Source: a virus (Duplodnaviria > Caudoviricetes). Taken from it: a stretch of 59,329 nt of DNA. The notes beneath the pieces are model-generated. The model ran no database searches. It was given only the letters and a program-made list of their open reading frames with translations, and was not told the origin of the DNA. How positions within the stretch are numbered: position 1 is the first letter of the stretch; every line of letters begins with the position of its first letter. A program made the translations under genes and the position numbers. Shown here one piece after another: positions 958 through 41,826 of the stretch. The stretch lies in IMG/VR virus record IMGVR_UViG_3300009034_000040, positions 1 to 59,329 of that record; one strand, written 5' to 3'.

Positions 958-3750
958 TTAACGTTTTTCTTTGTAATTTCTAAGTAACTCTCTTATTCTC
1001 TGATCAAGATTGTAAATTATATCAGCTAGTGATTTCGGTTCTTTCCCTAAACTAAATTCTGCTGAAAGAGAATTATCTGAAGCTCGATAAGTAATATCAA
1101 TCGAATTTATTTTATACGTACTTCCAGTAACCCCAAGTTCATCTAAATCAACTGCTACAGTATTACCAGCCATAGGGTGATAGGTAGTCCAGTCAAGAGT
1201 ATCACTACTAACCTCTAGAGTTATCCGTTCATCTTTAAGAAATGCTAATACAGATTGTGCTCTTGCTTCGCATAAAGCGTCAGCCCATAACAAATCATCA
1301 AATATAACTAATTCTCTTCTTCCATAGGTAGATTGTGAAGTTGTATCTTCAGCAAATCCTCCATCAGTAGCATCTCCTCCCCATCGCTTACCACCAAAAT
1401 ACATCTCGTCAAAATAAGCAGTATAAGTTCCAGCAGCAGCATAAAGCACATAAATTTCTATAAGTGAAATATCGGTCCAATCAAAGTCTGCTCCGATTAA
1501 ATGCCATGAACCTTCATTATCAGCTCCACCTACCAGATGTACTTCTAACCATTCATCAGCATTAGTTACAGGTATAGCTTGAGATTGTGCCCATTTAGTT
1601 CCAGTACCATCATCACTTCTTAAAAATATAGTAAAGTAACTAGGCTTAGTAGCCTCAAAATGTGCTAATAAATAGAAATTTTTATAATCCTCCATAGAGA
1701 AATGTTCCGTAGAAATCAATGGCTTAATAATTCTAAAACCTGTACCTGACGTATTCATAAGTTCCTTGATAGAATAACTACCAACTCTTTTATCTGTACT
1801 CTCAGCCGAGATGGTTGAAGAATCGTTATCATAATAACTCCAGTAACCCCATCCTCCGCTAGGACTTACTTCAAAAACAATAGAATAATTAGCTGTTGTA
1901 AAGGCTCTAACTAAATTAGTAGTAAAGGTTATTTCATCTTCACCACCTGGTCCTGTACCAGCACTAATTGATTCGACTTGTAGAAGTTCCCCTGGCGTTG
2001 CTGAACCATCCTCTAACCATAACCAATCATCAGCAGTAAATTGTGCTCCGTCTCCAGAAGGGATTCTAATTACTGCTTGCGCTGAAGCAGCATTTAAACT
2101 TAATTCACTTTTATTGTAGGGAGTAACCAAATCGGTCCATGTATCTGAATATTCCTGACCATCAGTTTGTAATGGATAAGGTTTGTCTTCTTTACCAAAT
2201 ACCCAGATCTTATTTTTAACTCTAGTAGAATCTTTAAAATATCTATTAAACTGACATTCATCCTGTAAAGTATAGCTCTCAGCCTTAGTTTCCTTAGGAA
2301 AGAATGTAAATTTTCCATCATACTCAATTCTGAAATCATAACCTATAACATCACTAAGATCTGATACTTCTGCTATATATTTTAATATCTCATAAAGTGA
2401 AGTATAAACGTACTCCATCTTAGAAAACGTGGTATCGGTTTCTTTAATTAAATCTAGATAAACATCTCCAGTAGTAGTGTAATCTCTAACCATATTGCTA
2501 ACAAGAGTTAAAGTATTTGTAGATACAGAAGCTACCTGATTGTATTCCCACGTAGCTCCGTCCTCAATCTTTATTAAATCATTAGCAGTAAATTTACTTC
2601 CATCAGTAACCACTAAAGTTTTAGGTGCAGCTCCTATATTCGTATTAGCTCCTATAGGATCGTTTACTCTAGTATGCGTGATTGAACTATAATTATCCAA
2701 CAAATAAGCAACAATAGACTCAGCTTCACCACTCGTCTTCTTATATGAATTATCTGCTGTTCCAACACTAGTAATTAGATCACCATTATATTTTCTAGTC
2801 CAAAACTGATAACCTCTATCTTTCCCTCTAATAATAACAACATTCCTAAAATCCCATTCCTCTAATGAATCCTCATACTGTATCTCCTCGATAATACCTG
2901 TAAATAATCTTGGAGTATTAGCTCCCCTTCCCATATCTAAAGTTATAACTCCTCCATTTGTCAACTGATTCGCTTCAGTAGGATCTAACGCACCATCATA
3001 GCTTGGATTGCCTCTATCTAAAATAATCTCCACATTAGATATCTCTGTTGTAGCACCCAAATGTAAATTCACACCTAAAATTATCTCATCATCAATATCG
3101 GTATCAATCTCTAAGTTTTCTACATAACCATCACACTGATCATTACCATCTCCAGAGTCGTATTGTGTACCAGTAGTTTGTATTACACTATAGCTAGTTA
3201 AAAGATCATCTTCGCCAGTCAAGTCTATCGTAATACTATCCTTTAGTATAGTACGTGCTTTATCCGTATAAATATACACTGTGAAAACATTTGTAACTCT
3301 AGTTATTTTAAGATAATAAATTGTTCCTACATCAAGATCTACTGACGTATCATCCACTACATTATCTGCGTGTGTAAAATATAAATTAAACTCAGTGGTG
3401 GAACTTCCTTTCTCTAATATTACTAAGTAAACTCCTTTACCGGCAGCTACTTTAATTGGAGATCCTGCTGATTCACACACTTGCCATATCATAGTTAAAT
3501 ATTTATTAGCAGCAGTAGCATTAACATCTATCGCATCTAATTCAAAATCCAGTCTATGAATAAAATTCCCACTTACTGTTAAAGTCTTGGATAAATAACA
3601 ATCTTCATTACGTATCATATCAGTCCAAGTAGCTCTAGGAATAGTCTGAGAAAGTTTATTAGTCGTATCCGTCTCTGTCCAAGTAGTGAAATCCATCACT
3701 GAACCTAATGTGAGATCTATCGTAGGTAGAGTTAAAACACCAGTCATCAC
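958..3750 (-). CDS. Large tail tip/baseplate hub protein with probable carbohydrate-binding domains
   Basis: 930 aa, directly after the tape measure gene; hub-like segments (LFTGIIEEI, IRGKD, YDFRIEYDGKFTFF, VKNKIWVFG, SQSTYGRRE); beta-rich inserts. Confidence 0.75.
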   Translation of the reverse strand: MMTGVLTLPTIDLTLGSVMDFTTWTETDTTNKLSQTIPRATWTDMIRNEDCYLSKTLTVSGNFIHRLDFELDAIDVNATAANKYLTMIWQVCESAGSPIKVAAGKGVYLVILEKGSSTTEFNLYFTHADNVVDDTSVDLDVGTIYYLKITRVTNVFTVYIYTDKARTILKDSITIDLTGEDDLLTSYSVIQTTGTQYDSGDGNDQCDGYVENLEIDTDIDDEIILGVNLHLGATTEISNVEIILDRGNPSYDGALDPTEANQLTNGGVITLDMGRGANTPRLFTGIIEEIQYEDSLEEWDFRNVVIIRGKDRGYQFWTRKYNGDLITSVGTADNSYKKTSGEAESIVAYLLDNYSSITHTRVNDPIGANTNIGAAPKTLVVTDGSKFTANDLIKIEDGATWEYNQVASVSTNTLTLVSNMVRDYTTTGDVYLDLIKETDTTFSKMEYVYTSLYEILKYIAEVSDLSDVIGYDFRIEYDGKFTFFPKETKAESYTLQDECQFNRYFKDSTRVKNKIWVFGKEDKPYPLQTDGQEYSDTWTDLVTPYNKSELSLNAASAQAVIRIPSGDGAQFTADDWLWLEDGSATPGELLQVESISAGTGPGGEDEITFTTNLVRAFTTANYSIVFEVSPSGGWGYWSYYDNDSSTISAESTDKRVGSYSIKELMNTSGTGFRIIKPLISTEHFSMEDYKNFYLLAHFEATKPSYFTIFLRSDDGTGTKWAQSQAIPVTNADEWLEVHLVGGADNEGSWHLIGADFDWTDISLIEIYVLYAAAGTYTAYFDEMYFGGKRWGGDATDGGFAEDTTSQSTYGRRELVIFDDLLWADALCEARAQSVLAFLKDERITLEVSSDTLDWTTYHPMAGNTVAVDLDELGVTGSTYKINSIDITYRASDNSLSAEFSLGKEPKSLADIIYNLDQRIRELLRNYKEKR

Positions 3751-3759
3751 ATATAACCT

Positions 3760-4287
3760 CTAAATATGGGTTGCTTCTGCAAACCCACCTCTTGTAATCA
3801 TACGTCTATGAGCAGTAACCCGTCTCTGTGTTAAAGTTCCTTTCTCTAATTCTGTATTATATTCTCTCTGTGCTTGCGCAGCGTTCTGAGTTTGCATTGC
3901 CAACACCGCTACCGCTGCTGCTGCTGCTATCGCAACTCCTACCCCCAGAGTCATCAATGAAACGCTCCAAGTCTTAGCTGTTACAAATCCCCATTCAATA
4001 GCAGTTAAAGCCTTAACGGTAGAAGCAACTGCTGACATTACTCCTATAGCTGTACCGAATACCCCAACTGCTGCTGCTTGCTGACTAGACAATAAACCAG
4101 TAACCCTACCTAACGTAGCAAATGAAGTAGCTAATCCACCAACTCTACCCATAGTTGTAAGAACCGTAGACTTGAACCTATTAAAGTTCTTCTCTACACT
4201 ATCAAATGCTTCTTTAGTCTGATCTCTAGCCTTTATAGCCATCCAAAGTGTCGGTCCTGCTCCTGCCACACCTACAGCTGCCATCAT
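3760..4287 (-). CDS. Very short tape measure protein
   Basis: IKARDQTKEAF N-terminal motif; Ala/Gly-rich hydrophobic helices; position between chaperone/gp10 genes and hub. Start probably MMAAV at ~4287. Confidence 0.65.
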   Translation of the reverse strand: MMAAVGVAGAGPTLWMAIKARDQTKEAFDSVEKNFNRFKSTVLTTMGRVGGLATSFATLGRVTGLLSSQQAAAVGVFGTAIGVMSAVASTVKALTAIEWGFVTAKTWSVSLMTLGVGVAIAAAAAVAVLAMQTQNAAQAQREYNTELEKGTLTQRRVTAHRRMITRGGFAEATHI

Positions 4288-18016: not shown

Positions 18017-19570
18017 TTACTTCTCACCTGTCATACGCTTTAAATATTTAAGAAAAATCCCGTCAACTTGTTTACTTCTACCTGATTTATGAAATCCATA
18101 ACATTCTGCAAAAGCTTCTTCAGCACCTTTCATATAAGCATAATCAGAAGGAAACTTATAACCCATCTTAATTCCTCTATGATAAACATTTTCCCATTCA
18201 CGCCTATCACTAGAACTAAGTCGTTCCCATTTGCTATGGGCTACTTCATGAAATACTACTCTATTTAATTCAGGATCTGTCAAGTACTTACGTTCTAATC
18301 TCATCTCACCAGTTGATTTGCTAAAAGTTGCATCAGCACTAATTCTCTCACCACCTATTGAAAAGACATCTGCCTCATCTACTACGCTAATCTTTTTTAC
18401 ACCTTCTAAATCTTCTTTAGGCAATCTATTTAACACTGATTCTACTATATGTGTTTCTACTTCATCCTTTTGACCCTCTATCCTATACCCTTTAGGCTTA
18501 GGTTTTTTAGCATATTGTTCCGCTAATTCTCTAGTACGACTCCTAATTTTCTCAGGTACTTTCTCCCAATCTGTAATTTCCACACAGATATGTTGACCAT
18601 CATCAGTTATCCATTTACCTCCCGCTTGACTACACCAATCCTCAGCCTTACGTTCTGCTCTAGCTCTAGCTACCTCTTGCTCTATATCCTCTCTAGCTTG
18701 TGGTGAAGGTTGCTTAATCCAATCTATCTTCCAATAACCTTCATCCTCATGCTCTACTGGATCTAAAGGTTTCTGGTCTTCAGGTTTCATAAACAACCAT
18801 GCCCAATGCTTATACTCCTTACCTATCTTTAACTTGCGAAGTACAAACCTACCTTTCAGTTCTTTGCCATAGAAGAAGTACTCATGTAAATCCTTACGTT
18901 GTACTCCGTACTTAACTTCTCCTTTATCAAGTATCTCCATCCTAGCTATCTCTATGTAACGAGCTACTTCTTTCTCTTCTGGTGGTTCAGTATGTCTAGT
19001 TGGAAACCGTAACTCTCCTTCTCTAGTTAACCATTCCTTAGGATGTACATGTTTAGGTGTTGCTTGAGTTCTCTGAGCTGGCTTAAGCCTTTCTTTAAAA
19101 GCTCCCCAACTACTTATTCCTTCTGGCACTGGAGGATGTAGAGTCACACCTATTAACTTACCGTTTATTTCCATTCGTAAATCTATGTGATCTCTAATCT
19201 TCATTATCCTAAATAGTTCTTTCTTTAACGAACTGTTCTCTAACCACTGAACTATCTCATTAGAACATTCCTCTAGTAAACCTAAACCTTTATGCATCTC
19301 CTCAGGTTTTTCTCCTGGCTTAATCCTTTCTTTCCTTCCTGTAGGCCAATGTCTCTGTAGTACAAATGTAGTCTTCTGTTTAGACTTCCACTTATAGTAC
19401 TTCTCTGGTAAAGGTTCTCCTTCTTTAGCTAACTCTTCGTAATCTGGTAACTTCTTAGCTTTCTTAACTTCCTTCTTAACTATGAAGAATTCTCTAATTG
19501 TTCTTCCTTCTTTATCTTCTTCTCTTAACCAAGTACCTTTATTAGTTTTAAATTCCTTAATCTTTACCAC
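18017..19570 (-). CDS. LigD 3'-phosphoesterase-like domain fused to a zincin metallopeptidase
   Basis: FVLQRH, HIDLR, HPKEWLTREG, LDKG, FYGKELKGRFVL, WLFMK; C-terminal HEVAH...YA...EEAFAE. Confidence 0.75.
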   Translation of the reverse strand: MVKIKEFKTNKGTWLREEDKEGRTIREFFIVKKEVKKAKKLPDYEELAKEGEPLPEKYYKWKSKQKTTFVLQRHWPTGRKERIKPGEKPEEMHKGLGLLEECSNEIVQWLENSSLKKELFRIMKIRDHIDLRMEINGKLIGVTLHPPVPEGISSWGAFKERLKPAQRTQATPKHVHPKEWLTREGELRFPTRHTEPPEEKEVARYIEIARMEILDKGEVKYGVQRKDLHEYFFYGKELKGRFVLRKLKIGKEYKHWAWLFMKPEDQKPLDPVEHEDEGYWKIDWIKQPSPQAREDIEQEVARARAERKAEDWCSQAGGKWITDDGQHICVEITDWEKVPEKIRSRTRELAEQYAKKPKPKGYRIEGQKDEVETHIVESVLNRLPKEDLEGVKKISVVDEADVFSIGGERISADATFSKSTGEMRLERKYLTDPELNRVVFHEVAHSKWERLSSSDRREWENVYHRGIKMGYKFPSDYAYMKGAEEAFAECYGFHKSGRSKQVDGIFLKYLKRMTGEK

Positions 19571-21506
19571 TTAAATATTCCTCCATAAACTTATAAGTCT
19601 TAGGATTTCTTAATTTAACCCCAGCTGGATCTTTTTTATACCAAACAAAGGCTTCAGCAAACCCTTCATCCCAATTAACATTAGCATACTTACTAACCTT
19701 TTCTTCTTTCCAAACAGTTTCAGTCCAACGATTCGCCGTTTCATAATCTTGTGGTGCAACTACATGACCAAATTCATGATAGATAGTTTCTTTAGTTGAA
19801 CCCTTAAAAAATCCCATTTCTTTAGTTCTTTTATCATAATAACCACCTACAAAAGGCATTCCATATTTTTTATATTCTGAAGGAACTTCTTTACCTTTAG
19901 ATCGATAAAACTCATCTAAAGTATAAGGCTCTCGACTAATTCTAATATAGTCTACTCGCTTCTTTTTTTTCTCTGGTAAATGATTATATAAAGAACTTAC
20001 TTCATCTACTGTTTCCCTTCTTCCAACATCAAATATCAATTTAGTCTTATGATCTCTAGAAATTAAAGTTCTCTCAGTTAATCCTTCCCCTAAATCTCTA
20101 TCCTCTCCTATACATATATGCTTCCCCTCAACAGTTATCCACTTCCCACCCTGCTCACTACACCAATCAGCCTTCTCTACCTCTCTAGGCAAAGTTAATC
20201 CGCTAAGTCTCATAAGAACGTTCATCGAATCAGGTCTATTACGTTCTCTCACATGCTCTAAAACCTTAGGCTCAAAAACACCAAATGTGTAACAATCAGT
20301 TCCCTCTATCTTATATCTATTAACCTCAGGAGTGAAAACTCTAATTATATCTCCAACCTTAACTTTAATAGAAGTATTAAATGTCTTACCGAAATATGCC
20401 CAAGTCTTCCCTTTCAACTCTATTACTTTCTTAGGTTTCTTCTCTTTAACTACAGAAGCACATTCCTTAGAATACGGTCCAGCAGCTATATGGTAATTAT
20501 ACACACCAACTATAGGCTTCCCTTCTAAAGGTCCCTTCTTGTGCTTAGGTTGCTCTATATCCACAACTATACAATCTATCTCTTTAAGGTTCTTCAGTTT
20601 AAACCAAGTCTTGTTATGAGCTATGTCCTTAGCAGCCTTAATGTACTTACCCTCTAAAGTTTTAATCATAGCTCCCTCAGAACCCTTCATAGCTCTAACC
20701 TTCTTGATGGCTGCTAGTAATTCTTTCTCAGTCTTACATATAAACCCTCTCTTACCTATTACGGTAGGCTTCAAATGTTTAGTAGTCTTAATCTTCTTTA
20801 AGTAATCAAGTCGTTCTTTATACGGTAAATCTCTTAAGTCTTTTCCTTCCCAGTAAAGTACGTCAAATACCCAGAACTGAGATTGTTCGTCTTTTTCCTC
20901 TAAGTATTCCTTTCCGTTAGCGTAACCTATAAAACTAGTTCTATGTAAGACTTGATCGTTTACAACTAATACTCCTTCTGAATCTACTACTGTTCCTTTA
21001 GGTAATGCCTCATTAATATCAGTTACAGCTTTCTTAAACTTATTAGACTTCTTAAATCCTTCATCCTCTGAGAATAGTTCTACTGTATTACTCTTATGTA
21101 TCTGAATCCTCATGCCGTCTATCTTTATATCTACATAAGCTGGTAGGCTAAAGTCTTTATCATCAAATAGTTCTTTAGCTTCAAATATCCTTGTTGCTGG
21201 TTTATTAGGTTTAACAAAACTACCTACTCCTTTCTTTAAGCATTTATCCAGTGGGTGATTAGTCCAAAACCACTTATCATATCTACTTAATGTTTCTGTC
21301 GCTACTTCTTTATAACGCTTCTCTATTTTGCTTCTTATCTCTGGATGTCTATCCCATGCAGTTCTAAGTCTAGCTATTTCAAATGTTAAGTACTTCCAAC
21401 TCTTTCTCTTTAAACTGTTATTCAAGACTGTAATAGTCTCCGCTTCATTAACTTCTTTATCTGTGCATCCGTGTAGTATTTCCTTAAGTTCTCTAGCTTC
21501 TGCCAT
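19557..21506 (-). CDS. ATP-dependent DNA ligase fused to a zincin metallopeptidase
   Basis: KIDGMR, VVDSEG, VFDVL, EGAMIK, WFKLK and OB domain; C-terminal HEFGH...YA...EGFAE. Confidence 0.85.
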   Translation of the reverse strand: MAEARELKEILHGCTDKEVNEAETITVLNNSLKRKSWKYLTFEIARLRTAWDRHPEIRSKIEKRYKEVATETLSRYDKWFWTNHPLDKCLKKGVGSFVKPNKPATRIFEAKELFDDKDFSLPAYVDIKIDGMRIQIHKSNTVELFSEDEGFKKSNKFKKAVTDINEALPKGTVVDSEGVLVVNDQVLHRTSFIGYANGKEYLEEKDEQSQFWVFDVLYWEGKDLRDLPYKERLDYLKKIKTTKHLKPTVIGKRGFICKTEKELLAAIKKVRAMKGSEGAMIKTLEGKYIKAAKDIAHNKTWFKLKNLKEIDCIVVDIEQPKHKKGPLEGKPIVGVYNYHIAAGPYSKECASVVKEKKPKKVIELKGKTWAYFGKTFNTSIKVKVGDIIRVFTPEVNRYKIEGTDCYTFGVFEPKVLEHVRERNRPDSMNVLMRLSGLTLPREVEKADWCSEQGGKWITVEGKHICIGEDRDLGEGLTERTLISRDHKTKLIFDVGRRETVDEVSSLYNHLPEKKKKRVDYIRISREPYTLDEFYRSKGKEVPSEYKKYGMPFVGGYYDKRTKEMGFFKGSTKETIYHEFGHVVAPQDYETANRWTETVWKEEKVSKYANVNWDEGFAEAFVWYKKDPAGVKLRNPKTYKFMEEYLSGKD

Positions 21507-22530: not shown

Positions 22531-22806
22531 TTAACCTCTAAAGAATATATCCCACATACAGCGACATGAAGGATGTGAAGGCATCCTAGGTAAGAACATT
22601 CCTGTATGGTATCTCCTACCATTCTGACTGTCACAGTAGTTACACGTACGTGCATCAATCACAGATACCCACATTAACTCCTTAAACCCTGCTTCTCTAA
22701 ATGCTCCTTTCAAAGCTCCATTGTAAGTTCTAAGACTGAAGTCGTGTGCTAAGTCCTCCATGCGAATTAGAATTCCCTTGTCTGAAGTCCAAAATTCTTC
22801 TGACAT
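22531..22806 (-). CDS. MuF / SPP1 gp7-like minor head protein (core domain only)
   Basis: W-x4-D-x-RTC-xx-C...P-x-HP-x-CRC. Confidence 0.85.
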   Translation of the reverse strand: MSEEFWTSDKGILIRMEDLAHDFSLRTYNGALKGAFREAGFKELMWVSVIDARTCNYCDSQNGRRYHTGMFLPRMPSHPSCRCMWDIFFRG

Positions 22807-23043: not shown

Positions 23044-25650
23044 TTAAGTAGCAGTTCCTAATTTATCACTTGTAAATGGTTTACAAATACCAGTCAAATG
23101 TGCAACATCTCCAAGTGTATCAGAAGCATCAGCACCTAAACGTTTAATTCTTAAATGGATACACTCATCAGTTGCAGATGGAGCAGTTAAAGTTACACTA
23201 GAAATAACTAATCCATCAGTACTCGTTGAAGCAGAAGTAGTTACAGTTAAAGTTCCTTCTGCAGCAGCAGTAACATCTTCTCCAGATGCTCTCCATAAAT
23301 ATTCTACTTGCCATACACATTGTACTGAATCGTCTCCTGGATCAGCAGTTGGACAGCTCCATGCTAACCTAAGTGTTGGAGCAACAGTTCTATCCATTTT
23401 ATTAGGAATTCTAAAATTAGCAACTATAGTGTCATCAGTTGCATCACTGAATTCCCAAGCGATGCTTATTCCTAAATCTACTTGTGTAGCTGGTTTAACT
23501 CCTGGAGCTTTTAACCCTTCAGCACCTATCCAATTAGCACCAAGTACTCTAGCTGTTCCATATAAAGTTAATTCTCCATCTGTAGCGAAAGCAGCATAGT
23601 TAGTGGTTCCACCATCTCCAAAGTTAGATGCTCTAGCACTTAGTGTTTTACCTGACTGTAGTGTGATGTCTCCTCCTAATGGAATGTCAAGCATGCTTAC
23701 TCCTCCTGATTGTCTGCCTTGGGCTACTGTTCTATATCCTCCTGCTCCATCAGGAACATTAAGGTTTAAAGTAGCTGTGCCAATAACCATTGTGTTAATA
23801 TTAAGGTTTGTAGCTAAACTATTCAAAAAACTAAAGTAAAGAGCAGAAACCCTAAGATCTCTTTTAGTTGTTCCACCAGCATTAACAATAGCAAGAGTCT
23901 GATCCCCAGTCCAGTAGATATCTACATTATTAATAGCGTAAGCTGAAGTGCCGAATCGTAACCGTTGACCTTTCATGTCTAGTATACCAGCCATTTCTAC
24001 TGCGTCAAGATAAGCTACACCGTCTAAGTACAAGTCTTTCCATTTCAGACTAGTAGTTCCTAAATCGTAAGAGTCATCTGTTTTAGGTATGATGTGTCCT
24101 TGACTTCGAATAGCAGCAGTAGTGAATTCATGTCCTGATTGAAGGTTCATATCTATACCGTAATCAGCTACATTAATTGAGCCTCCTAAGTTAGTTCCTT
24201 TAAGTAGAACCATAGCGTCTAATGCTTGACCATTTCCTCCTACAGCCTCATTCTCAATATAAAGTAAATAACCTGTACCAAAACTTCCTTCTCCCGTAGC
24301 ATTTAAAGTATGAGTTCTAACATGAAGAGTTGTAAGTGTTGTTATGGTGTCTTTAACTCCCCATTCCGAATTGAATAAACCAGCTCTCATAGTTGTAATA
24401 GTAGCAGAAGTAGTATCTGACTTACCAATAGACTCAGCAAGTAATGTAGTTATGTTACTTATATCTACCCCATCAACGTTTGCTCCTTGTAATACAACAG
24501 TATATAAAGTTCCGCTAGCACTATCAATTCCAACTGAACTTCTAAATCGTGTTCCTCTATGAGTCCCTGTTAGAGCGTTAGTAGTATGTCGAGTATGAAT
24601 GTGAATTACCGTATCTCCTCCTGCAGTAGTGTAACCTTGTGGAGAAGCGAATGAACCTAACGCTATCGTATTATCTATGAATTGAATTCCTTCAATGGTT
24701 ACTCCCTGATCAGAAGTGATTTCTAATATGTCATCAGTGTAGATGATTCCCTGAGCATATACATCACTCCAAGGATCACCGGATGTTCCTAAATCTTGAA
24801 GTGCATCAGGATAGAACGCTAATCCACCTCTCTTTTCATCACAGTATAAACCTAAAGCGTAGAGTCGTGAGCATCTAACGTCATACCATTTTTTAGTGCT
24901 AGAACCTAAATCGTATGTAATATCCGTTAAAGGTAAGATATCACATTGGACTGTTACCTCAGACTTAACATGTAAATTATCGATGTAAGCATCATCCCAA
25001 AGAAAGGAGGTAGAACCTAAATCTCTAGTAGCATCTCCATCTGGAATTAAATTACTACCTATATCACCCGTCAAAGCTAAATCTACAGCTGCTATGTTTT
25101 CAACATCTAAATCACATTCTAAACTGAAAGTATCACCGTCAAAGTATATTGGATTAGCTAATATATTATCATCTGCATCTAGAATGTACGTGTCTAAAGG
25201 GTATCCTTCACCGTACATTATAGCAAACTTCTGATCATCAACTGGATTGTATAGTACTATAGCTGGTCCTACTTCATAACCTTCAATAGTGTTTAAAACT
25301 ATATCTCCGTCAGTTAAGTCAACAGTTAAAGCTCCGGTCATTGAACGAGTACCTGTTAACGGGAGTAAATCAGTATGTAAATCCCCTGTCGCAAATATCG
25401 GATGGACATGTACGTGATCATCTCTAGAAGCTAACGATCCAGTTCCAGCAGAAGCAGTTGTACCTATATCTTCTGGATCTGTATCTGATAGAACACTAGT
25501 AATACTTATAACGGGCTTTACGGACTAGCCAAGAGTTATGACTAGTTTTCCGTCCTCGTCCACCTGGATTACTGGATAAGTATCACCAGTGGGGTAATAA
25601 CCTACGGCTAAAACTATTCGTTGTGGCCTCTTAACTGTTGGTTGTGGCAT
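23044..25650 (-). CDS. Virion fibre protein, long isoform; predicted join(25548..25650, 23044..25517), 858 aa
   Basis: One frame from the ATG at 25650 (SD GAGGTGA), broken only by TAG at 25525-25527. The fibre motif SRDDHVH lies upstream of the track's ATG (25341). Repeated DLG-x4-W fibre motifs. Confidence 0.75.
25518..25547 (-). other. Predicted 30-nt bulge-helix-bulge/loop (tRNA-type) intron
   Basis: ACGG-AAA-ACTAGTCA-TAACTCT-TGGCTAGT-CCGT-AAA: a 4-bp helix with AAA 3' of each strand and an 8-bp intron stem containing the TAG. Confidence 0.7.
25525..25650 (-). CDS. 41-aa short isoform (unspliced) of the fibre gene, putative virion anchor protein
   Basis: MPQPTVKRPQRIVLAVGYYPTGDTYPVIQVDEDGKLVITLG*, strong SD, directly after the portal gene. 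Confidence 0.7.
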   Translation of the reverse strand: MPQPTVKRPQRIVLAVGYYPTGDTYPVIQVDEDGKLVITLG

Positions 25651-25654
25651 TACT

Positions 25655-28153
25655 TCACCTCTTCTTAACTCCTCTCAAACTATCATAAAGTATTTTATGA
25701 AAATCATCTAAACTATTCTGTTTATAAATCTCTATTCTTTTTATCTCTTCTGGACTCAGCCCAACCTTCTTTCTAGTTCTTCGCTCTGCATGTTTTAAAG
25801 CTCTCTTAGTTAATTCACTGTAAGACTTCTCCATCGTTTGTTTAGCTTTAACCATTGCTTCGTTAACTACTATTCCTTTCTGTTTACCGTCCTTTACTTG
25901 TTTAATTGCCCAATCTTTAATTTTTATTAGTTTCTTGTAGAGTGTGCTTTCATCATGAACTACACCGAAAGGTGCTCTGGCTTGAATAATGCTCTTTCTC
26001 TCTATAGGCTCTGGCATCTCTGTAGGTTCTGATCCAGCTGGACTCTCTAAAGGTGAAAACTTAATTCTGCTAAGTCTATATCTAAGGTTATCTATCTTCT
26101 GACCTAACCACTCAAGCTTAATACTGTCAAAGTAGTTAGCTAGTTCTATTAGTAGTTTAGGATTGAATTCTCTACGTGTATTAGTTAGTAACCGTTTAAC
26201 TCCTGCATCATAGTCATCCTCATTGAATCCCACACCTTCCAGTTTAGTTTTTACGAATCCTAACAGTTGTTCTAGAAGGTTAGATATCGCTAGGTTTAAT
26301 TTAGTAGCTGATGTTCTAGTTCCTTCTATTTCATGTTCATTAATCGTTATGTATACCTCATTTTGATCGCTGTTAATAGCAAATACCTTATCCCATACCC
26401 GTATCTGTGTTGCTGAATACCAACTAATCGGTAGAGGACTCGCTAAGTCTGTTCTCTCTGCTAACTCTAATCTTTCACCACTAGTTCTAGTAGGTTCTCC
26501 TTCTTCAAACTCTTCTGGTTTACCACCCATATCTCTAGGCTTCTCTCCAAATCTAGAACCGAACGGTTCTCCTTCTTGTAGTTTAGCTTTACCAGTAATC
26601 TTCAATTCTTCATTCTCATCTATTACCACATCAAATCCTGCTCTAGCTCCCTGTAAAGCAGTAGCCATCTTTGTATGTAATGTCTGAGCATCTCTTAGTT
26701 TGTCTCTTCCTCTAATAGGTGGAAAATCTAATAACCAATCTGTAATACCGAACTTAGGTAATATTCCGTAATTCCATAACTCTTTAAAGTTAGTCTGGTG
26801 TTCCTGAGTTGTTCTATCTTGAACCTCTATCTTAAGTTTATGTTGACCTCCCGGCTCTGAAACACTTACAAACTCAGCCGTAACCCCGTATACTTCTCCT
26901 ATAGCATTAATGTACTTCGCATAGAACTCTAAAGATTGCATAGCCTTAAGATCTTCCATGATAGGAAGTCGTATTGGATGCTGATCCTTCTTCAAACCTA
27001 TAAATAAAGTTCTAATAGCTGGACTAGTTCTATACCTCCCTGTAGTAATGTCTTCTTGATCTAAAGATTGTAATTCTTCTTCAATAGCAGTTTTCTTAGC
27101 AGCTATTTCTACATCATCATCTCCAGGGAATCCTATTATAGAACCTACCTTTCCTTTACTGTAAACTTCCCAATTATAATTATCCATTGCTGCAACTGTC
27201 TGTATAGGCTTCCAAATGCTTACTATTTTAGGATTACCGAATAGTCTAGGTTTAACTCCTGAACTAGAACCATGAACTATTTCCCCTGGTCCAAACCTAG
27301 CTAATACTACACCTGACACTTCCTGTACGTAGTAAGTCTGAATCATAGGCCCATTACAGTACTCACAAATCTTAAGTCTCTCTTGTTGTTCAGAAGGCAT
27401 CTCCGGCATTATCTGCACTACTGGCATATCCTGTTTCTTAAACTGTTCAGAATCATAACAATTAGGACAGAACCATTCATAACCTCCTAAATGACCTAAC
27501 TCATCTGCTATAGGAAAGAAGTATCTAGCATCCTCAATATAAACCTCAAAAGGTTTCTTATCATATACTACTCTTCCTTCTGATATAACAGTTCTCATCA
27601 ATCCTGTCTTAAGATCTCTCTCGCTCTTAGGTAGGTACTTATAAGCTACTCCTAAATACTGTTCATCTAATGCTAAATCATAAAACAAAGCAGAACGATA
27701 TAAATCTCTAAATGAATAATCCCTGTTAGGTCTACTTATTAGTCTATCAAATTCCTTAGCTTGTTCTTCTGAAGGAACCCTTAACTTACTACCACAACTA
27801 TCACACTTATTATCTTTAGGTGTCTCTTTAAATTCCTTACCACAGTCTTCCTTCTTACACTTCCACTTAAACTTAGGTACTCGTAAAGGCTTCTCTCTTG
27901 AACACTCCTGAATGATAGCTCTAAATGCTCTCCTTAAAGGCCATGAAGTAGTAGCTACCTCAAATAGGTTTACATAATCGTAGAAAGGTCTTCTTATTTG
28001 TGGTTGAGGCTCAAACACGAATGTAGGTTGTACAGGTGTAGTCTTCTGTATCTTTATTCCTATTCGATTACCTAACCATGTAAGGAGTCTTTCTCTTCTA
28101 GTTAATTTAGTTTCTTTCTTCTCTATTTTTAAACTCTTACTGCGTTTACTCAA
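25655..28153 (-). CDS. Portal protein with Zn-ribbon inserts and a long C-terminal extension
   Basis: Downstream of TerL; RPN, GEIVH...FGNP, IGEVYGV, ILPKFGITDW; two Cys-rich inserts. Confidence 0.85.
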   Translation of the reverse strand: MSKRSKSLKIEKKETKLTRRERLLTWLGNRIGIKIQKTTPVQPTFVFEPQPQIRRPFYDYVNLFEVATTSWPLRRAFRAIIQECSREKPLRVPKFKWKCKKEDCGKEFKETPKDNKCDSCGSKLRVPSEEQAKEFDRLISRPNRDYSFRDLYRSALFYDLALDEQYLGVAYKYLPKSERDLKTGLMRTVISEGRVVYDKKPFEVYIEDARYFFPIADELGHLGGYEWFCPNCYDSEQFKKQDMPVVQIMPEMPSEQQERLKICEYCNGPMIQTYYVQEVSGVVLARFGPGEIVHGSSSGVKPRLFGNPKIVSIWKPIQTVAAMDNYNWEVYSKGKVGSIIGFPGDDDVEIAAKKTAIEEELQSLDQEDITTGRYRTSPAIRTLFIGLKKDQHPIRLPIMEDLKAMQSLEFYAKYINAIGEVYGVTAEFVSVSEPGGQHKLKIEVQDRTTQEHQTNFKELWNYGILPKFGITDWLLDFPPIRGRDKLRDAQTLHTKMATALQGARAGFDVVIDENEELKITGKAKLQEGEPFGSRFGEKPRDMGGKPEEFEEGEPTRTSGERLELAERTDLASPLPISWYSATQIRVWDKVFAINSDQNEVYITINEHEIEGTRTSATKLNLAISNLLEQLLGFVKTKLEGVGFNEDDYDAGVKRLLTNTRREFNPKLLIELANYFDSIKLEWLGQKIDNLRYRLSRIKFSPLESPAGSEPTEMPEPIERKSIIQARAPFGVVHDESTLYKKLIKIKDWAIKQVKDGKQKGIVVNEAMVKAKQTMEKSYSELTKRALKHAERRTRKKVGLSPEEIKRIEIYKQNSLDDFHKILYDSLRGVKKR

Positions 28154-32419: not shown

Positions 32420-34630
32420 ACCTCATATTATATATTTCCTGGAACTCCTCTAATCTAAGACTTAACTGTTTAATCAGTCTAGCCTTAGCTATCAGTTCAT
32501 CATGTGTCTCTCTAGTGTAAGCTGATATGTCATAGTATGAAAGTAATCCTATCCTAACTATATTCTCGTAGTATTCCTGACTAGGCCAACTAACTAAAAC
32601 TCGTCTACTCATTACTTCTTCCTCAATAACTCTGCTCCTTGCTTCCATCTTCGCTTACACTGATAACATACCCAAAACTTAGCTCTGTGACCTCTCTTCA
32701 TCTCATCTGTCCATGCTCTAAACCTTAATTTCAGTAAAGGATGACTACCACAGTTAGGGCAAAACGGATTAATGTTATTTTCCCTCCACAGCCTTCAACA
32801 TCTCAATAATCTCATGATCTTTAATTAAACCCTTCACTAATATTTCTTTAGTCTTAGATATGAAAGTTAACCACCTTATCAATTGTTCATCAGTTAACTT
32901 ATAATTCTCAATATTAAATTCTTTACTCAATCTTATCTACCTTTCAACAATAATATCAACTATCCTGTACGTTATAACCTTATACCCTTGAGCTTTGAAT
33001 AGTTTTATTAATGATGAACCTTTATGTAAATAAACAGTTCTAAATATGAAACCACTCAAATCATATTCAACATCTAAATCTGGTAAGAGATTACTCCTTA
33101 TTTTATTCAAGGCTTAACTTCTCCTTTCCTTTTTAATAATGAACAAAAACCTATGTAATTGCAACAACTACAAGATGAAAGTTTTTGTTTAAATTTAAAA
33201 AGACAAATTGCGATTTCTTCAGCCTCTTCAATCGCTATATCTTTTAACTCTTCAAGTCTATCCATTTCAGCCACCTAAAAATTAGCTTGTAAAATATCTA
33301 GATAAATCTTAAGTTCTTCAATAGAAAGTTTTCTTGTTTTCTGAAATTCTTTTTCAATAATATCTTCATTTTTCAAGGCTTAACTTCCCCTTCAAACCCA
33401 CACCGTTTACACTTCTTAACTGTAAAATCTGTTCTTGGTTTAGGTTTCTCATGAACACCTGTTAATCTCTTCCTCTGAACCTTATATTGTAGTTTATTAT
33501 CTCCACACTTAGGACACTTCATCTTTGATGCCTCAAATACCTCTAAACCTTTGACAATCACAAAAACGACAGTCAACATAAATTCTTGGATGCACCGAAC
33601 TAACAGTAGGAATATACGATCTATGACTCTTTTTTGAATGACCACACTCACATTTAGAATACTTCATACCTTAAGCAACTCTACTAGGTTATAGATATAT
33701 CTTCCTTCAGTATCAGAGTAGATTTCTATTTCTCTAATAAAGTCTATTGTTATAGATTCTATATTCATTTGATTGATAACTCCTTCTCTCCGAAAAGCAA
33801 CTTCTTCAAAAATTCTCGTTTATAGTAAGCCTCATCTTTCTCTAGGCTATACGGCATAGATTCTTCGTATTGACGGTTGTATTTTTCTAAGAGTTGTCGC
33901 AGTTTCTCAATCAAAGGCTTAGCTTGCTCACCAAGCATAGCCAAAACATCGGGAAGCTTTACTAACGAAACAAATACTGATTCATCAGAACGCAGACTTG
34001 CAAGTTTCTTGCAGTCTTTTTCTTCTACAAAATATGTACTATGAGAATCTCTATGAACGACTATCTTTATTGCTTTTTGTTTGATTTTCTCCTCGAAGCT
34101 CAATTAAATACCTCACTTACCTAAAATTTCTTTAATAATATCTAACTGTCCTTGTCTATAAGCTCTACCTATTTTACTTAATGCAAGATTTTTTCCATTT
34201 CGTTTTTGAAGTTCAGCCTCAAATTCGTCTTTCCATTTCAGAATTAATTCAATATAACGAAATCTGTATTCTGCTTTATCCCTTGAGTATGGTGCACCTG
34301 TTGGAAAGGTTCTCAGATTAGGCTCCATCTAATACCTCACTTATCTATACCTCAAACACTTATTTAAGTTTATTCTTTCTTAATTCCATGTAGAATTATT
34401 TGAACTTCCTTAATATAACTAAGATATAATTTAGCTATACCAATACAATATTCACAACCCTTAAGAAATTCTTCTTCAGACATTGGACCAGCTGTAGCAC
34501 AACTAAAGTTAGAATCCTTATCAACTGTAATACAACAAGGAGGATATTTCATTCCTTCAAATTTCAATGCTTCTCTAATTATCTCTATTTCTGCTAAAGC
34601 GTTCTCTAATCGTTGTTTAATGTTGCTCAA
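32406..34630 (-). other. Cluster of small hypothetical ORFs (accessory region)
   Basis: Densely packed 50-110 aa ORFs with overlapping stops/starts; several CxxC. Confidence 0.6.
32612..32773 (-). CDS. Zn-ribbon protein with probable ATT start (not in the ORF track)
   Basis: GGAGG-N9-ATT; CPNCG...CYQC; no ATG/GTG/TTG in frame upstream of the first Cys pair. Confidence 0.55.
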   Translation of the reverse strand: MNPFCPNCGSHPLLKLRFRAWTDEMKRGHRAKFWVCYQCKRRWKQGAELLRKK

Positions 34631-40642: not shown

Positions 40643-40973
40643 TTCTATATTTCTCCCTTAATCTTCCTGTTCGAGGTAACACCCGTAGTTTTCTATTACA
40701 ATACCTATAAGGACAGTAAGCAGTATTTAAGTTCTTACCTAACCATCTGATTTGATCTATATGAATTCTACCATGTCTAGAACAAGTAGCATATAGATAG
40801 AATACTCCTTTCCTAATAGAGAAGTGATTCCTAACTAACCCTAGCTTAACTGCTTTCTGTTCTATAGCTTTCTTAGTTCTATCAGGGAACAACTGCATGA
40901 GTTCAGTCCAGCTAACACTGTTATATCTAAGTCTTAACAAAGCTATATCTTGCTTGCTCCATCGTTTACCCAA
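40632..40973 (-). CDS. Myb/SANT-like HTH plus Zn-ribbon protein
   Basis: WSKQDIALL...RTKKAIEQKAVKLGL; C-xx-H...C-x4-C. Confidence 0.65.
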   Translation of the reverse strand: MGKRWSKQDIALLRLRYNSVSWTELMQLFPDRTKKAIEQKAVKLGLVRNHFSIRKGVFYLYATCSRHGRIHIDQIRWLGKNLNTAYCPYRYCNRKLRVLPRTGRLREKYRSVR

Positions 40974-41826
40974 CTAGATTGCTTCCTATTAACTTCTCCT
41001 CTAAATATTTCTGGTAGTATTTAAACATCTTAATTGGAGGAGTACATATATGCTTCTTAGCTTCTTTACTTATTGATTGAGCAACTAAAGGCATAGCTAT
41101 TTTAACATCTTTAAACTTTTCTAATCCTAAGTCTACAAATACTTTATCTATAGCTCCATATGTCTCTGACTCTGGTAATACAGGAAGTAAAGGCTTATCA
41201 TTTTCGATACGAATCTTTTTAGGTCTAGGTGGGTCATCAAGTTTGGCTTTAGCATAAATATATTCTTTACCGTACCAAGTCTTTAATACAACTCCTTCTC
41301 TACCTTTCTCCTTTGCTAACTTCAACATTTCATCTCTGAACTTTAATAAACTCTTTATACTTCTATGTTTAGATTCTCCCCATTGCTCAACTATTGGAAT
41401 TCTCCACTGATAACAATACTGATAAATTCTGTTATAAGGTAAGAAGTGTTCTTCATTCAAATACCACATGTCAAATATTATATATTCTTCTTTATCATGT
41501 AATTCAAATCTAGCTGGACTCTTACCTTTAGATAGTAATTCACCGAATATTATTAGTTCTGTGTTCCAATCTTTACGTTGATTAAGAAGTAAATCTTTAA
41601 TTTTAGAATATTCTTCAGTTCGTTTTAATATTGCTTGTAAATCCTTAGAGGCTTCTTTCATTCTACGACTAGAAATAATTAGTTTATTCTTTTCATCTAA
41701 CCATGTAGCAATGCATGAACCATCACGCTTCTCAAACCAGTAGATTAATTTACCTAATAAAATTCTAGGATTAGGTCTAATATGATTAATACTGGGTATT
41801 TCTAGATAACTCCATTCTTTACCCAT
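40966..41826 (-). CDS. ATP-dependent RNA ligase (Rnl2-like)
   Basis: EKRDGS, IFGEL, IFDM, REGVVLK, AKAK; helical C-terminal domain and no OB fold. Confidence 0.8.
   Translation of the reverse strand: MGKEWSYLEIPSINHIRPNPRILLGKLIYWFEKRDGSCIATWLDEKNKLIISSRRMKEASKDLQAILKRTEEYSKIKDLLLNQRKDWNTELIIFGELLSKGKSPARFELHDKEEYIIFDMWYLNEEHFLPYNRIYQYCYQWRIPIVEQWGESKHRSIKSLLKFRDEMLKLAKEKGREGVVLKTWYGKEYIYAKAKLDDPPRPKKIRIENDKPLLPVLPESETYGAIDKVFVDLGLEKFKDVKIAMPLVAQSISKEAKKHICTPPIKMFKYYQKYLEEKLIGSNLVG

What the first reader, a model, noticed from the sequence alone, without database searches (positions are those of the whole stretch)
25510..25560. tRNA-type (BHB/BHL) intron in a viral fibre gene, predicting short and long isoforms by alternative splicing
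SEEN: the frame from ATG 25650 (SD GAGGTGA) to 23044 is broken by a single TAG (25525-27). The region after the TAG is clearly coding (fibre motif ASRDDHVH) but has no ATG/GTG/TTG for ~60 codons. The mRNA folds as ACGG(25553-50)-AAA-ACUAGUCA-UAACUCU-UGGCUAGU-CCGU(25523-20)-AAA. That is a 4-bp central helix with AAA 3' of each strand and an 8-bp intron stem holding the UAG. The exon-exon helix is imperfect (GG/CC plus GACG/CGUU), so the motif is a relaxed BHL type. ESTABLISHED: archaeal tRNA-splicing endonucleases cut such bulges after the second nucleotide; some types accept BHL motifs; BHB introns occur in crenarchaeal cbf5 mRNA. Applying that rule removes exactly 30 nt (25518-25547), keeps the frame and deletes the stop. 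The unspliced product ends DEDGK-LVITLG*; the spliced product reads DEDGK-PVISITS. The intron therefore encodes a look-alike of the strand supplied by exon 2, as expected if both products are functional. INFERENCE: partial splicing by host EndA/RtcB sets the ratio of a 41-aa anchor to an 858-aa anchor+fibre, a job phages usually do by frameshift or readthrough. I know of no described case in an archaeal virus.
Basis: partly seen in the sequence, partly recalled or inferred. Interest (0 to 1): 0.95.

Follow-up and report, generated by a model that had tools for sequence, protein, structure and literature searches.

The report
Candidate tRNA-type intron in viral fibre
An archaeal-type tailed virus has a fibre gene broken by one stop codon that lies inside an unusually stable RNA fold shaped like the introns archaea cut out of tRNAs, so it may make a short and a long protein from one gene by splicing, but no RNA or protein data yet show this.

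Summary
One TAG (25525-27) splits a 41-aa ORF with a strong ribosome-binding site from an 826-codon fibre frame. That frame has no ATG/GTG/TTG for 61 codons.

The TAG is probably not an error. An otherwise unrelated 52%-GC contig (L003) has the same mini-ORF ending at the same place.

The predicted bulge-helix-bulge (BHB)-like fold is stable: all three helices have pair probability 0.94 or more. It uses very rare codons whose third-position C pairs with G. It folds better than 99.97% of synonymous recodings.

The bare pattern occurs at chance frequency. A version that actually forms is found only here: 1 of 166 pattern hits in the window, 0 of 50 in 334 kb of other natural sequence, and 1 in 60 shuffled genomes. 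Cutting at the rule positions removes 30 nt and the stop.

Against the intron:
- The 3' bulge has 4 nt.
- No relative shares the fold.
- Homologous fibre repeats run contiguously across the TAG.
- The host is unknown.
- No reads could be obtained.

My odds: BHB intron about 0.45, stop-codon readthrough about 0.2, other readings less.

The parts
25655..25661 (-). Shine-Dalgarno-like GAGGTGA, 4 nt before the ATG of the mini-ORF. It overlaps the TGA stop of the portal gene.
   Evidence: 40 of 69 listed ORF starts have a comparable motif
25525..25650 (-). Mini-ORF of 41 codons plus TAG, ending ...IQVDEDGKLVITLG*. It is the conserved N-terminal module.
   Evidence: 63% identical to the 32-aa ORF of L003, which stops at the same aligned position
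25525..25527 (-). In-frame TAG, paired inside the 3' arm of the hairpin
25554..25560 (-). Exon-side helix, 5' strand (GACG-A-GG)
   Evidence: pair probabilities 0.94-0.97 for five of its six pairs; the outermost G-U pair 0.13-0.66
25550..25553 (-). Central 4-bp helix, 5' strand (ACGG)
   Evidence: pair probabilities 0.98-1.00
25547..25549 (-). 5' bulge AAA. The predicted 5' cut lies between 25548 and 25547.
   Evidence: The cut rule (between the second and third bulge residue) is from a passage in PMC2738675.
25524..25546 (-). Intron hairpin: stem 25546-25539 with 25531-25524, loop 25538-25532
   Evidence: seven pairs at probability 0.97-1.00, the closing A-U pair at 0.41
25520..25523 (-). Central helix, 3' strand (CCGU)
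25516..25519 (-). 3' bulge AAAG (4 nt, not the canonical 3). The predicted 3' cut lies between 25518 and 25517.
25510..25515 (-). Exon-side helix, 3' strand (CC-CGUU)
25518..25547 (-). Predicted 30-nt intron. Its removal deletes the TAG and keeps the frame.
   Evidence: downstream open frame 8 codons unspliced, 825 codons spliced
23044..25524 (-). Fibre body, 826 codons plus TAA, with no start codon of its own before codon 104
   Evidence: homologues carry End_tail_spike and Peptidase_S74 domains
25399..25497 (-). Conserved fibre-repeat motif LSDTDPEDIG...ASRDDHVHVHP (residues 52-84). It lies between the TAG and the first ATG.
   Evidence: 286 proteins at E<=0.001 and 45 at E<=1e-10; most best stretches fall on query residues 52-95
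25339..25341 (-). First in-frame ATG (codon 104). It starts the 765-aa ORF that ORF listing gives, which matches protein P0002 in the protein database.

Best explanation
The locus encodes two products from one frame.

Shown:
- A 41-aa mini-ORF with a good ribosome-binding site ends at a TAG whose position is conserved.
- The fibre body follows in frame with no start of its own.
- The RNA around the TAG is predicted to fold stably into helix, 3-nt bulge, 4-bp helix, bulge, helix.

Inferred:
- In an archaeal host, the tRNA-splicing endonuclease (EndA) cuts both bulges two nucleotides beyond the 4-bp central helix.
- The host ligase RtcB joins the exons.
- The 30 nt at 25547-25518, which include the TAG, are released.
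- Spliced mRNA then gives an 858-aa protein made of the N-terminal module plus the fibre. Unspliced mRNA gives the 41-aa module alone.
- The share of mRNA that is spliced sets the ratio of the two products.

What the short module does is also inferred. I take it to be the attachment or assembly end of the fibre, made in excess as a free peptide.
For: 1. Some recoding is needed here.
- The TAG is the only break in 869 codons.
- The 61 codons after it contain no ATG/GTG/TTG and no Shine-Dalgarno motif, while 40 of 69 listed ORF starts have one.
- These codons hold a motif shared with 286 proteins at E<=0.001. The homology runs across codon 104.

2. The stop is old.
- L003 is 52% GC. Of its ten ORFs, only the mini-ORF matches the window significantly (E 1.9e-7); the next best match is E 0.033 over 39 residues elsewhere in the window.
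- It has a 32-aa ORF with twelve identical residues, IQVDEDGKLVIT, one residue that differs, then the same final Gly and a stop at the same aligned position.

3. The fold looks real.
- Pair probabilities are 0.94-1.00 in contexts of 86 to 401 nt.
- Codons 29-47 are in the lowest 0.01% of 19-codon windows for synonymous-codon frequency. GTC, GGC, TCC and CCC have relative use of 0.02-0.04, and each places a third-position C opposite a G in one of the three helices.
- The native energy is -18.6 kcal/mol. Recoding by genome codon usage gives -7.9 +/- 2.4, and 0.03% of recodings fold as well. GC-matched recoding gives -12.1 +/- 2.4, and 0.9% fold as well.

4. The geometry is unique.
- With all three helices at probability 0.5 or more, this site is the only hit among 11 (stem >=6 bp) and among 166 (stem >=4 bp) on the sense strand.
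- Other natural sequence gave 0 of 38 hits in 255,961 strand-bases and 0 of 12 in a Methanofastidiosa virus.
- Sixty shuffled genomes gave 0.017 such hits per genome. The chance that a fixed site is enclosed by one whose length is a multiple of three is about 8e-6.

5. L003 is a natural contrast. Its downstream gene has its own ATG, and the equivalent RNA does not fold (-11.7 kcal/mol, z +0.66).

6. The virus is of archaeal type.
- All 9 phage records matching the major capsid protein are archaeal viruses.
- It has a Rad51/RadA-type recombinase.
- Archaeal EndA removes BHB introns whether or not the mature tRNA domain is present (passage in PMC3488258).
Against: - There is no RNA, read or proteome evidence.
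- This is a single genome, so no covariation test is possible. The nearest relative, L002 (portal 92% identical), ends before the fibre.
- The motif is not a strict BHB. The 3' bulge has 4 nt, and the exon helix is 2 bp, a bulged A, then 4 bp. A rival register with a 5-bp central helix is about as likely.
- Relaxed motifs are cut only by the broad-specificity alpha2beta2 and epsilon2 endonucleases (PMC3488258). The host is unknown.
- In 11 of the 150 listed homologues the best stretch runs from query residue 16-24 to beyond residue 84. In all 11 the matched span differs from the query span by -5 to +1 residues, so none shows a 10-residue gap.
- A subfamily has the same strand, turn, Pro, strand layout as the unspliced reading. 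P0128 reads ITL-RSVKP against ITLGxSVKP.
- Three of the rare codons (GAC, GTC, GGC) are the same in L003. They may be inherited rather than selected.
- Confirmed BHB introns in mRNA are very few: cbf5 and one 5' UTR (PMC7714728).
- My motif scanner is home-made. I could not validate it on known BHB introns.
Confidence: 0.45

Rival explanations
1. Programmed or leaky readthrough of the UAG. Most ribosomes stop and make the 41-aa peptide. A few per cent insert an amino acid and go on to an 868-aa fibre that holds the whole mini-ORF sequence.
For: - The two frames are continuous and the downstream part has no start.
- Homologous fibre repeats are contiguous across the aligned position, with matching length and the same strand, turn, Pro, strand layout.
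- A fibre is needed in few copies, so low efficiency would be enough (inference).
- The conserved stop position fits a long-lived leaky stop.
Against: - It gives no role to a fold that appears selected and is unique in the genome.
- There is no structure just 3' of the stop (z -0.48).
- No suppressor tRNA is encoded: 0 tRNA genes.
- TAG is an ordinary stop here. It ends 16 of 77 stop-to-stop frames of 80 codons or more, including the capsid gene, where a TAA follows two codons later.
- In L003 the same mini-ORF ends in TAA TGA, with no in-frame continuation.
Confidence: 0.2
2. There are two separate proteins. The 41-aa peptide terminates, and the fibre body is started independently. The start would be at a near-cognate codon (ATA codon 48 or ATT codon 50), reached by ribosomes that have just terminated, or at ATG 104. 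The two may then associate without a covalent link.
For: - L003 makes the module and the next fibre-like protein as separate, translationally coupled genes (TAATG overlap).
- Another gene in this genome, the ERCC4 nuclease at 48330-47713, also lacks a canonical start. Its Pfam domain begins at residue 6. An ATC codon lies 9 nt after AGGGG.
Against: - There is no Shine-Dalgarno motif before ATA or ATT.
- Starting at ATG 104 would drop the best-conserved motif and cut a domain that homologues carry across that point.
- It does not explain the fold.
Confidence: 0.1
3. The gene is defective, or the TAG is an artefact. It would be a nonsense mutation, a minority allele or an assembly error in a metagenome-derived genome, and the fold would be a coincidence.
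For: - The genome comes from a metagenome assembly and I could not check reads.
- Single in-frame stops are common in such data (general knowledge).
- The homologues show that the ancestral coding sequence was contiguous.
Against: - The stop position is shared with L003 despite 37% against 52% GC, with no other significant similarity among L003's ten ORFs.
- There is no further decay in the 61 start-less codons.
- The estimated chance of a formed BHB-like fold, with a length that is a multiple of three, enclosing a given site is about 8e-6 from shuffles. From 334 kb of natural sequence it is below about 1.3e-4.
Confidence: 0.1
4. Ribosome bypassing (hopping), as in T4 gene 60. Peptidyl-tRNA-Lys leaves AAA (codon 35), the ribosome slides over 30 nt, and it lands on AAG (codon 45). 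The protein would be the same as the spliced one.
For: - Two Lys codons lie exactly 30 nt apart.
- A stable hairpin begins directly after the take-off codon.
- Gene 60 uses matched take-off and landing codons and a hairpin at the take-off site (passages in PMC5462505).
Against: - In gene 60 a stop codon directly follows the take-off codon. Here CUA follows, and it is not especially rare (13 per 1000).
- Hopping gives no role to the central and exon helices, which are also supported by rare codons.
- I know of no archaeal precedent (recalled; I ran no search on this).
Confidence: 0.05
5. The variation is at the DNA level. Replication slippage between the imperfect direct repeats CGGAAA and CGTAAA, 30 nt apart and flanking the hairpin, deletes the 30 bp in part of the virus population.
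For: The repeats and the hairpin between them are visible in the sequence. Palindromes flanked by short direct repeats are known deletion hot spots (general knowledge).
Against: - Each infected cell would need a deleted genome to make fibres, so this is a poor way to supply every virion.
- It does not explain the 4-bp spacing of staggered bulges.
- No reads were available to test it.
Confidence: 0.03

Closest known systems
BHB intron in crenarchaeal cbf5 pre-mRNA (Watanabe 2002; Yokobori 2009; passages read in PMC2738675)
   Same: A short intron inside a protein-coding frame is defined only by a BHB-like RNA fold. It is cut by the tRNA-splicing endonuclease between the second and third bulge residues. 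The fold is described there as 'unconventional' rather than strict.
   Different: cbf5 is a cellular housekeeping gene and needs splicing to give its one product. Here the gene is a viral structural gene and the intron length is a multiple of three. The unspliced message has its own conserved product, so two isoforms are expected. Splicing has not been shown here.
BHB intron in the 5' UTR of Haloferax volcanii HVO_1309 (abstract and passages of PMC7714728)
   Same: It is an mRNA substrate of EndA outside tRNA and rRNA. It was found as a circular excised intron and confirmed in vitro.
   Different: It lies in a UTR, not in the coding frame, and is not viral.
12-bp putative introns in an archaeal virus genome (Peng et al., as cited in a passage of PMC2738675; I recall the virus as the rudivirus SIRV1)
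   Same: It is an earlier proposal of short introns, a multiple of three in length, in protein-coding genes of an archaeal virus.
   Different: Those were insertion/deletion variants between genomes and, per the passage, splicing was not demonstrated. I did not read the original paper.
Unconventional HAC1/XBP1 mRNA splicing (mentioned in passages of PMC4090602; details recalled)
   Same: A non-spliceosomal endonuclease and a tRNA-type ligase remove a short intron from an mRNA, which changes the protein's C-terminal part and so switches isoforms.
   Different: It is eukaryotic, the endonuclease is IRE1, the recognised motif is twin stem-loops rather than a BHB, and excision changes the frame.
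Phage C-terminal extension by recoding: Q-beta A1 readthrough and the tail-chaperone G/GT frameshift
   Same: One start site gives an abundant short product and a rare long product that shares its N-terminus, at a set ratio, in virion genes.
   Different: Those act at the ribosome. In my preferred reading this case acts on the RNA.
T4 gene 60 translational bypass (passages of PMC5462505)
   Same: A coding gap holds a stop codon, with matched codons at its two edges and a hairpin at its 5' edge.
   Different: In gene 60 the gap is 50 nt and the stop directly follows the take-off codon. A nascent-peptide signal is needed, and the system is bacterial.

Membership tests
Archaeal BHB (hBHBh') intron | Central helix of exactly 4 bp between the two cleavage sites | tested here: met
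   ACGG/CCGU has pair probabilities 0.98-1.00. A register with a fifth pair, A25549-U25524, competes with the 4-bp form.
Archaeal BHB (hBHBh') intron | 3-nt bulge on the 5' strand between the central and intron helices | tested here: met
   AAA at 25549-25547. This depends on the A25546-U25524 pair, which has probability 0.41.
Archaeal BHB (hBHBh') intron | 3-nt bulge on the 3' strand between the central and exon helices | tested here: not met
   The predicted bulge is AAAG, 4 nt. A 3-nt reading needs a G-G mismatch next to it. The motif therefore qualifies only as a relaxed form.
Archaeal BHB (hBHBh') intron | Flanking helices on the intron side (h') and the exon side (h) | tested here: met
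   h' has 7-8 bp. h has 2 bp, a bulged A, then 4 bp. Pair probabilities are 0.94-1.00 except the outermost G-U pair.
Archaeal BHB (hBHBh') intron | Excision at the rule positions restores a functional product | tested here: met
   30 nt are removed, the TAG is lost, and the downstream open frame grows from 8 to 825 codons.
Archaeal BHB (hBHBh') intron | The fold is conserved with compensating changes in relatives | tested here: inconclusive
   No relative with the same arrangement was found. L003 has neither the in-frame continuation nor the fold.
Archaeal BHB (hBHBh') intron | The host is an archaeon whose EndA accepts the motif (broad-specificity type for relaxed forms) | tested here: inconclusive
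   The virus is of archaeal type. The host phylum is unknown. The virus encodes no EndA or RtcB.
Archaeal BHB (hBHBh') intron | Cleavage by EndA, ligation, and a circular excised intron | not testable with these tools
   No sequencing run was listed for this stretch.
Programmed stop-codon readthrough | A stimulatory context or RNA structure just 3' of the stop | tested here: not met
   The 85 nt after the TAG fold no better than shuffles (z -0.48). The nearest hairpin starts about 44 nt downstream.
Stop-codon reassignment (TAG read as an amino acid, suppressor tRNA) | TAG avoided as a terminator, several in-frame TAGs, and a suppressor tRNA gene | tested here: not met
   TAG ends 16 of 77 long frames, including the capsid gene. 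No other long frame depends on reading through a TAG; the only other in-frame pair, at 3760, has its own Shine-Dalgarno motif and GTG start. There are 0 tRNA genes.
T4 gene 60-type bypass | Matched take-off and landing codons, a stop directly after take-off, and a take-off hairpin | tested here: inconclusive
   AAA and AAG lie 30 nt apart and a hairpin is present. The codon after take-off is CUA, not a stop. The nascent-peptide signal cannot be tested.

The most novel reading that the evidence does not exclude
This would be the first tRNA-type (BHB) intron in a viral protein-coding gene. An archaeal tailed virus would use it as an alternative-splicing switch. Unspliced mRNA gives a conserved 41-aa N-terminal module. 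Host EndA and RtcB remove 30 nt and the stop, giving the same module fused to an 823-residue fibre.
Probability: 0.45. Interest if true: 0.9.

Novelty: new variant of a known kind. Interest (0 to 1): 0.72.

Why it matters
If splicing is confirmed, it would show that archaeal viruses can borrow the host's protein-only tRNA-splicing enzymes to make two proteins from one gene. Bacterial phages do that job with frameshifts and readthrough, and eukaryotic viruses do it with the spliceosome.

The known set of BHB introns in mRNA would grow beyond one cellular coding gene and one 5' UTR. Gene callers may also be splitting or truncating archaeal and archaeal-virus genes at such sites. Here the database protein starts at codon 104 and loses the best-conserved motif.

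The test is simple: one RT-PCR, or one in-vitro cleavage of a roughly 70-nt transcript.

Even if splicing is refuted, two things still need explaining: a stop conserved between unrelated viruses, and a fibre gene with no start.

Tried and rejected
- Global TAG recoding: rejected.
- Sequencing runs for 24800-26400: none was listed, and no RNA holder was listed. The spliced junction, the circular intron, TAG polymorphism and a 30-bp deletion allele therefore stay untested.
- Close relatives of the fibre N-terminus: none in IMG/VR and none among 50,697 phage records.
- The portal scan found only L002, which ends inside the portal gene.
- Relatives of the mini-ORF:
  - IMG/VR, profile scan: 78 pattern matches, none confirmed.
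  - Species genomes: 91 pattern matches, none confirmed.
  - Protein database, similar lengths: only the window's own protein.
  - Protein database, longer proteins: 7 candidates, none scored.
  - DNA pattern for IQVDxxGKxV: 12 loci, none resembling the mini-ORF on inspection.
  - DNA pattern for DGKLVITxG-stop: 0.
- Host assignment failed. A RadA scan of species genomes confirmed nothing. The protein atlas gave mixed archaeal phyla.
- The cluster look-up meant to see whether the 41-aa protein's second contig is independent could not be made.
- Rfam: no family matched in the window.
- CTAG clustering as a DNA-level explanation: rejected. The observed/expected ratio is 0.83, and ten such clusters exist in the window.
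- Recent tandem duplication of 30 nt: rejected, because the LVIT-G-stop part is shared with L003.
- A second BHB-like pattern that would fuse the polymerase and RNA-ligase genes (9-bp stem, strict bulges) has pair probability 0 and is spurious. With very loose criteria, 872 patterns exist and 16 would fuse ORFs. The pattern alone therefore proves nothing.
- Fibre body against solved structures by sequence: no match.
- Literature: full-text searches turned up no BHB intron described in an archaeal-virus mRNA. For some searches I saw only the titles and abstract openings of the papers listed (15 of 34, 10 of 27 and 12 of 45); one search listed all 5. I did not consult supplementary files.
Full report
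**What the window is.** The window is a complete IMG/VR virus record of 59,329 bp. It is classed as linear, with a CheckV completeness of 100. Nearly all genes lie on the minus strand. It is a tailed virus with a terminase, portal, prohead protease, SU10-type major capsid protein and tail tube. It also has a family-B DNA polymerase, an ATP-dependent DNA ligase and an RNA ligase. Three results suggest an archaeal host:
- All 9 phage records that match the capsid protein are archaeal viruses: 8 haloarchaeal virus records and 1 Methanofastidiosa virus.
- The 15 best polymerase matches listed are haloarchaeal viruses.
- The recombinase is of the Rad51/RadA type.

I could not narrow the host any further.

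**The observation.** The frame from ATG 25650 to TAA 23044 has one internal stop, TAG 25527-25525 (codon 42). The upstream piece is a 41-aa ORF. It sits directly behind the portal gene and has GAGGTGA 4 nt before its ATG. The next in-frame ATG/GTG/TTG after the TAG is codon 104. No Shine-Dalgarno-like motif lies in between, although 40 of 69 listed ORF starts in this genome have one.

The 61 start-less codons are coding sequence. An exhaustive phmmer search with residues 1-110 found 286 proteins at E<=0.001 and 45 at E<=1e-10. Most best-matching stretches fall on residues 52-95, the motif LSDTDPEDIG...ASRDDHVHVHP. In several homologues the similarity continues across codon 104. Homologues of the middle of the protein carry End_tail_spike and Peptidase_S74 domains. 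The label 'fibre or tailspike-like' is therefore reasonable, though the protein has no Pfam hit of its own and no sequence match among solved structures.

**The TAG is not simply an error.** TAG is a normal terminator in this genome. It ends 16 of 77 long frames, including the capsid gene. No tRNA gene is present. General recoding of TAG is therefore excluded.

The one metagenome scan I was allowed found L003, a 4,160-bp contig of 52% GC. Of its ten ORFs, only one matches the window significantly (E 1.9e-7); the next best match is E 0.033 over 39 residues elsewhere in the window. L003 has a 32-aa ORF with a GGAGG ribosome-binding site. It ends ...IQVDEDGKLVITAG, followed by TAA TGA. The window's mini-ORF ends ...IQVDEDGKLVITLG, followed by TAG.

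In L003 the next gene encodes 338 aa. It starts at an ATG that overlaps the stop, and its product begins with its own copy of the module...LPIQVDANGKVVVN....

Two conclusions follow. The short peptide and the position of its stop are conserved between very different viruses. The module also occurs both free and as the head of a larger fibre-like protein. This makes a fresh nonsense mutation or an assembly error unlikely.

**The RNA fold.** A plain dinucleotide-shuffle test is unimpressive (z -1.55). A pattern search finds such motifs at exactly the chance rate: 11 against 10.99, and for stems of 8 bp or more, 1 against 0.93. With loose criteria there are 872 patterns, and 16 of them would fuse neighbouring ORFs. 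The pattern alone is therefore worth little.

Three further tests change the picture.
1. *Stability.* All three helices have pair probabilities of 0.94-1.00, whether 86 or 401 nt are folded.
2. *Codon choice.* Codons 29-47 use synonymous codons so rare that only 0.01% of all 19-codon windows in the genome's ORFs score as low. The four rarest are GTC, GGC, TCC and CCC, each 2-4% of its family. Each puts a third-position C opposite a G, and between them they cover the hairpin, the central helix and the exon helix. The native 63 nt fold at -18.6 kcal/mol. Recoding by genome codon usage gives -7.9 +/- 2.4, and 0.03% of recodings fold as well. GC-matched recoding gives -12.1 +/- 2.4, and 0.9% fold as well.
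3. *Uniqueness.* If every helix must actually form (probability 0.5 or more), the fibre site is the only hit among 11 (stem >=6 bp) or 166 (stem >=4 bp) patterns on the sense strand. None of 38 patterns in 255,961 strand-bases of other loci qualifies, and none of 12 in a Methanofastidiosa virus. Sixty shuffled genomes gave one such hit in total. That puts the chance of a fixed site being enclosed by a formed motif, with a length that is a multiple of three, at about 8e-6. From the natural sequences alone my upper bound is about 1.3e-4.

The equivalent RNA of L003, where no recoding is needed, does not fold (z +0.66).

There are caveats. As a 63-nt structure the site ranks only 74th of 9,878 windows. 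Three of the rare codons are shared with L003 and may be inherited. I could not check the scanner against known BHB introns. The first stage screened very many windows, which weakens any single coincidence.

**What cuts against an intron.**
- The motif fails the strict definition on its 3' side. Relaxed forms are cut only by the broad-specificity alpha2beta2 and epsilon2 endonucleases (passages in PMC3488258), and the host is unknown.
- No relative carries the fold, so covariation cannot be tested.
- The protein comparison leans the other way. In 11 of the 150 listed homologues the best stretch starts at query residue 16-24 and runs beyond residue 84. In all 11 the matched span differs from the query span by -5 to +1 residues, so there is no 10-residue gap.
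- A subfamily of repeats reads GRV, strand, turn, Pro, strand, then LS. The unspliced reading has the same layout: GKL-VITLG-x-SVK-P-VISITSV-LS. One homologue reads ITL-RSVKP where the window reads ITLGxSVKP.

The ancestral coding sequence was therefore contiguous. This fits plain readthrough. It also fits an intron that arose in place from coding sequence.

Nothing else marks the TAG as leaky. There is no structure 3' of it and no suppressor tRNA.

**Comparison with what is known.** Confirmed BHB introns in mRNA are the crenarchaeal cbf5 intron and an intron in the 5' UTR of Haloferax HVO_1309 (passages in PMC2738675 and PMC7714728). The cut lies between the second and third bulge residue (PMC2738675). 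For archaeal viruses I found only the proposal of 12-bp putative introns, with splicing not demonstrated (same passage). Four full-text searches listed nothing closer.

Functionally the case resembles HAC1/XBP1 splicing and the phage strategy of one start giving a short and a long product. A gene 60-type ribosome hop from AAA (codon 35) to AAG (codon 45) would give the same protein as splicing. It uses only the hairpin, however, and no stop follows the take-off codon.

**Verdict.** The stop is conserved, the fibre has no start, and the fold is stable, apparently selected and unique in the genome.

| Reading | My odds |
|---|---|
| BHB intron with partial splicing | about 0.45 |
| Stop-codon readthrough | about 0.2 |
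| Separate initiation of the fibre | about 0.1 |
| Defect or artefact | about 0.1 |
| Ribosome bypass | about 0.05 |
| DNA-level 30-bp deletion | about 0.03 |

The remaining share is for readings I have not thought of. If true, this would be a new variant of a known mechanism in a new setting. One RT-PCR or one in-vitro cleavage assay would settle it.

Noticed in passing
window 47713-48334 (-): An ERCC4-domain nuclease gene has no canonical start. The frame opens at 48330 and the Pfam domain begins at residue 6, but the first ATG/GTG/TTG is 81 codons in. Either ATC 48327, 9 nt after AGGGG, serves as the start, or a +1 shift follows ATG 48334. This is a second gene in the genome that needs non-standard decoding.
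   Followed up: partly
L003 2020-3134 (+): In an unrelated 52%-GC contig, the 32-aa mini-ORF is followed by a 338-aa ORF through a TAATG overlap. That ORF's N-terminus is a paralogue of the mini-ORF (IQVD..GK.V shared). So the module exists both free and fused in the same locus.
   Followed up: yes
window 40966-41826, 53996-55033, 49067-50212 (-): The virus encodes an RNA ligase (PF09414, E 1.8e-10), a calcineurin-like phosphoesterase and a Rad51/RadA recombinase. I did not examine whether the RNA ligase has any part in RNA repair or splicing. The virus has no EndA or RtcB.
   Followed up: no
window 3750-3762 (-): A second TAG separates two ORFs in the same frame (184 aa and 930 aa). Here the downstream gene has its own GAGGT and a GTG start three codons after the stop, so this is an ordinary gene boundary.
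   Followed up: yes
L016 (BK063666.1) about 33289-33380 (+): In the Methanofastidiosa virus, a BHB-like pattern with a 12-bp stem and 3-nt bulges lies in the gap after the queuine tRNA-ribosyltransferase gene. Pair probabilities are 0.92 for the central helix and 0.93 for the stem, but 0.01 for the exon helix.
   Followed up: no
window 25399-25410 (-), fibre residues 79-84: HVHVHP in the conserved repeat gives consecutive His-x-His motifs. I recall such motifs as metal-binding sites in trimeric phage fibre tips, but did not test this here.
   Followed up: no
window 22531-22806 (-): A 91-aa ORF downstream of the fibre has a weak Mu F-like minor head protein hit, below the curated cut-off (E 3.7e-4, 21.7 bits against 29.6). 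In the Methanofastidiosa virus an 800-aa protein of unknown function lies between the portal and capsid genes.
   Followed up: no
L002 (5,055-bp IMG/VR contig): This contig encodes a portal 92% identical over residues 1-707, so a close relative of the virus exists. The contig ends before the mini-ORF and the fibre.
   Followed up: partly
window 19557-21506 (-), residues 573-643: The C-terminus of the DNA-ligase ORF has a Pfam hit to the ATLF domain, below the curated cut-off (25.0 bits against 27.4).
   Followed up: no
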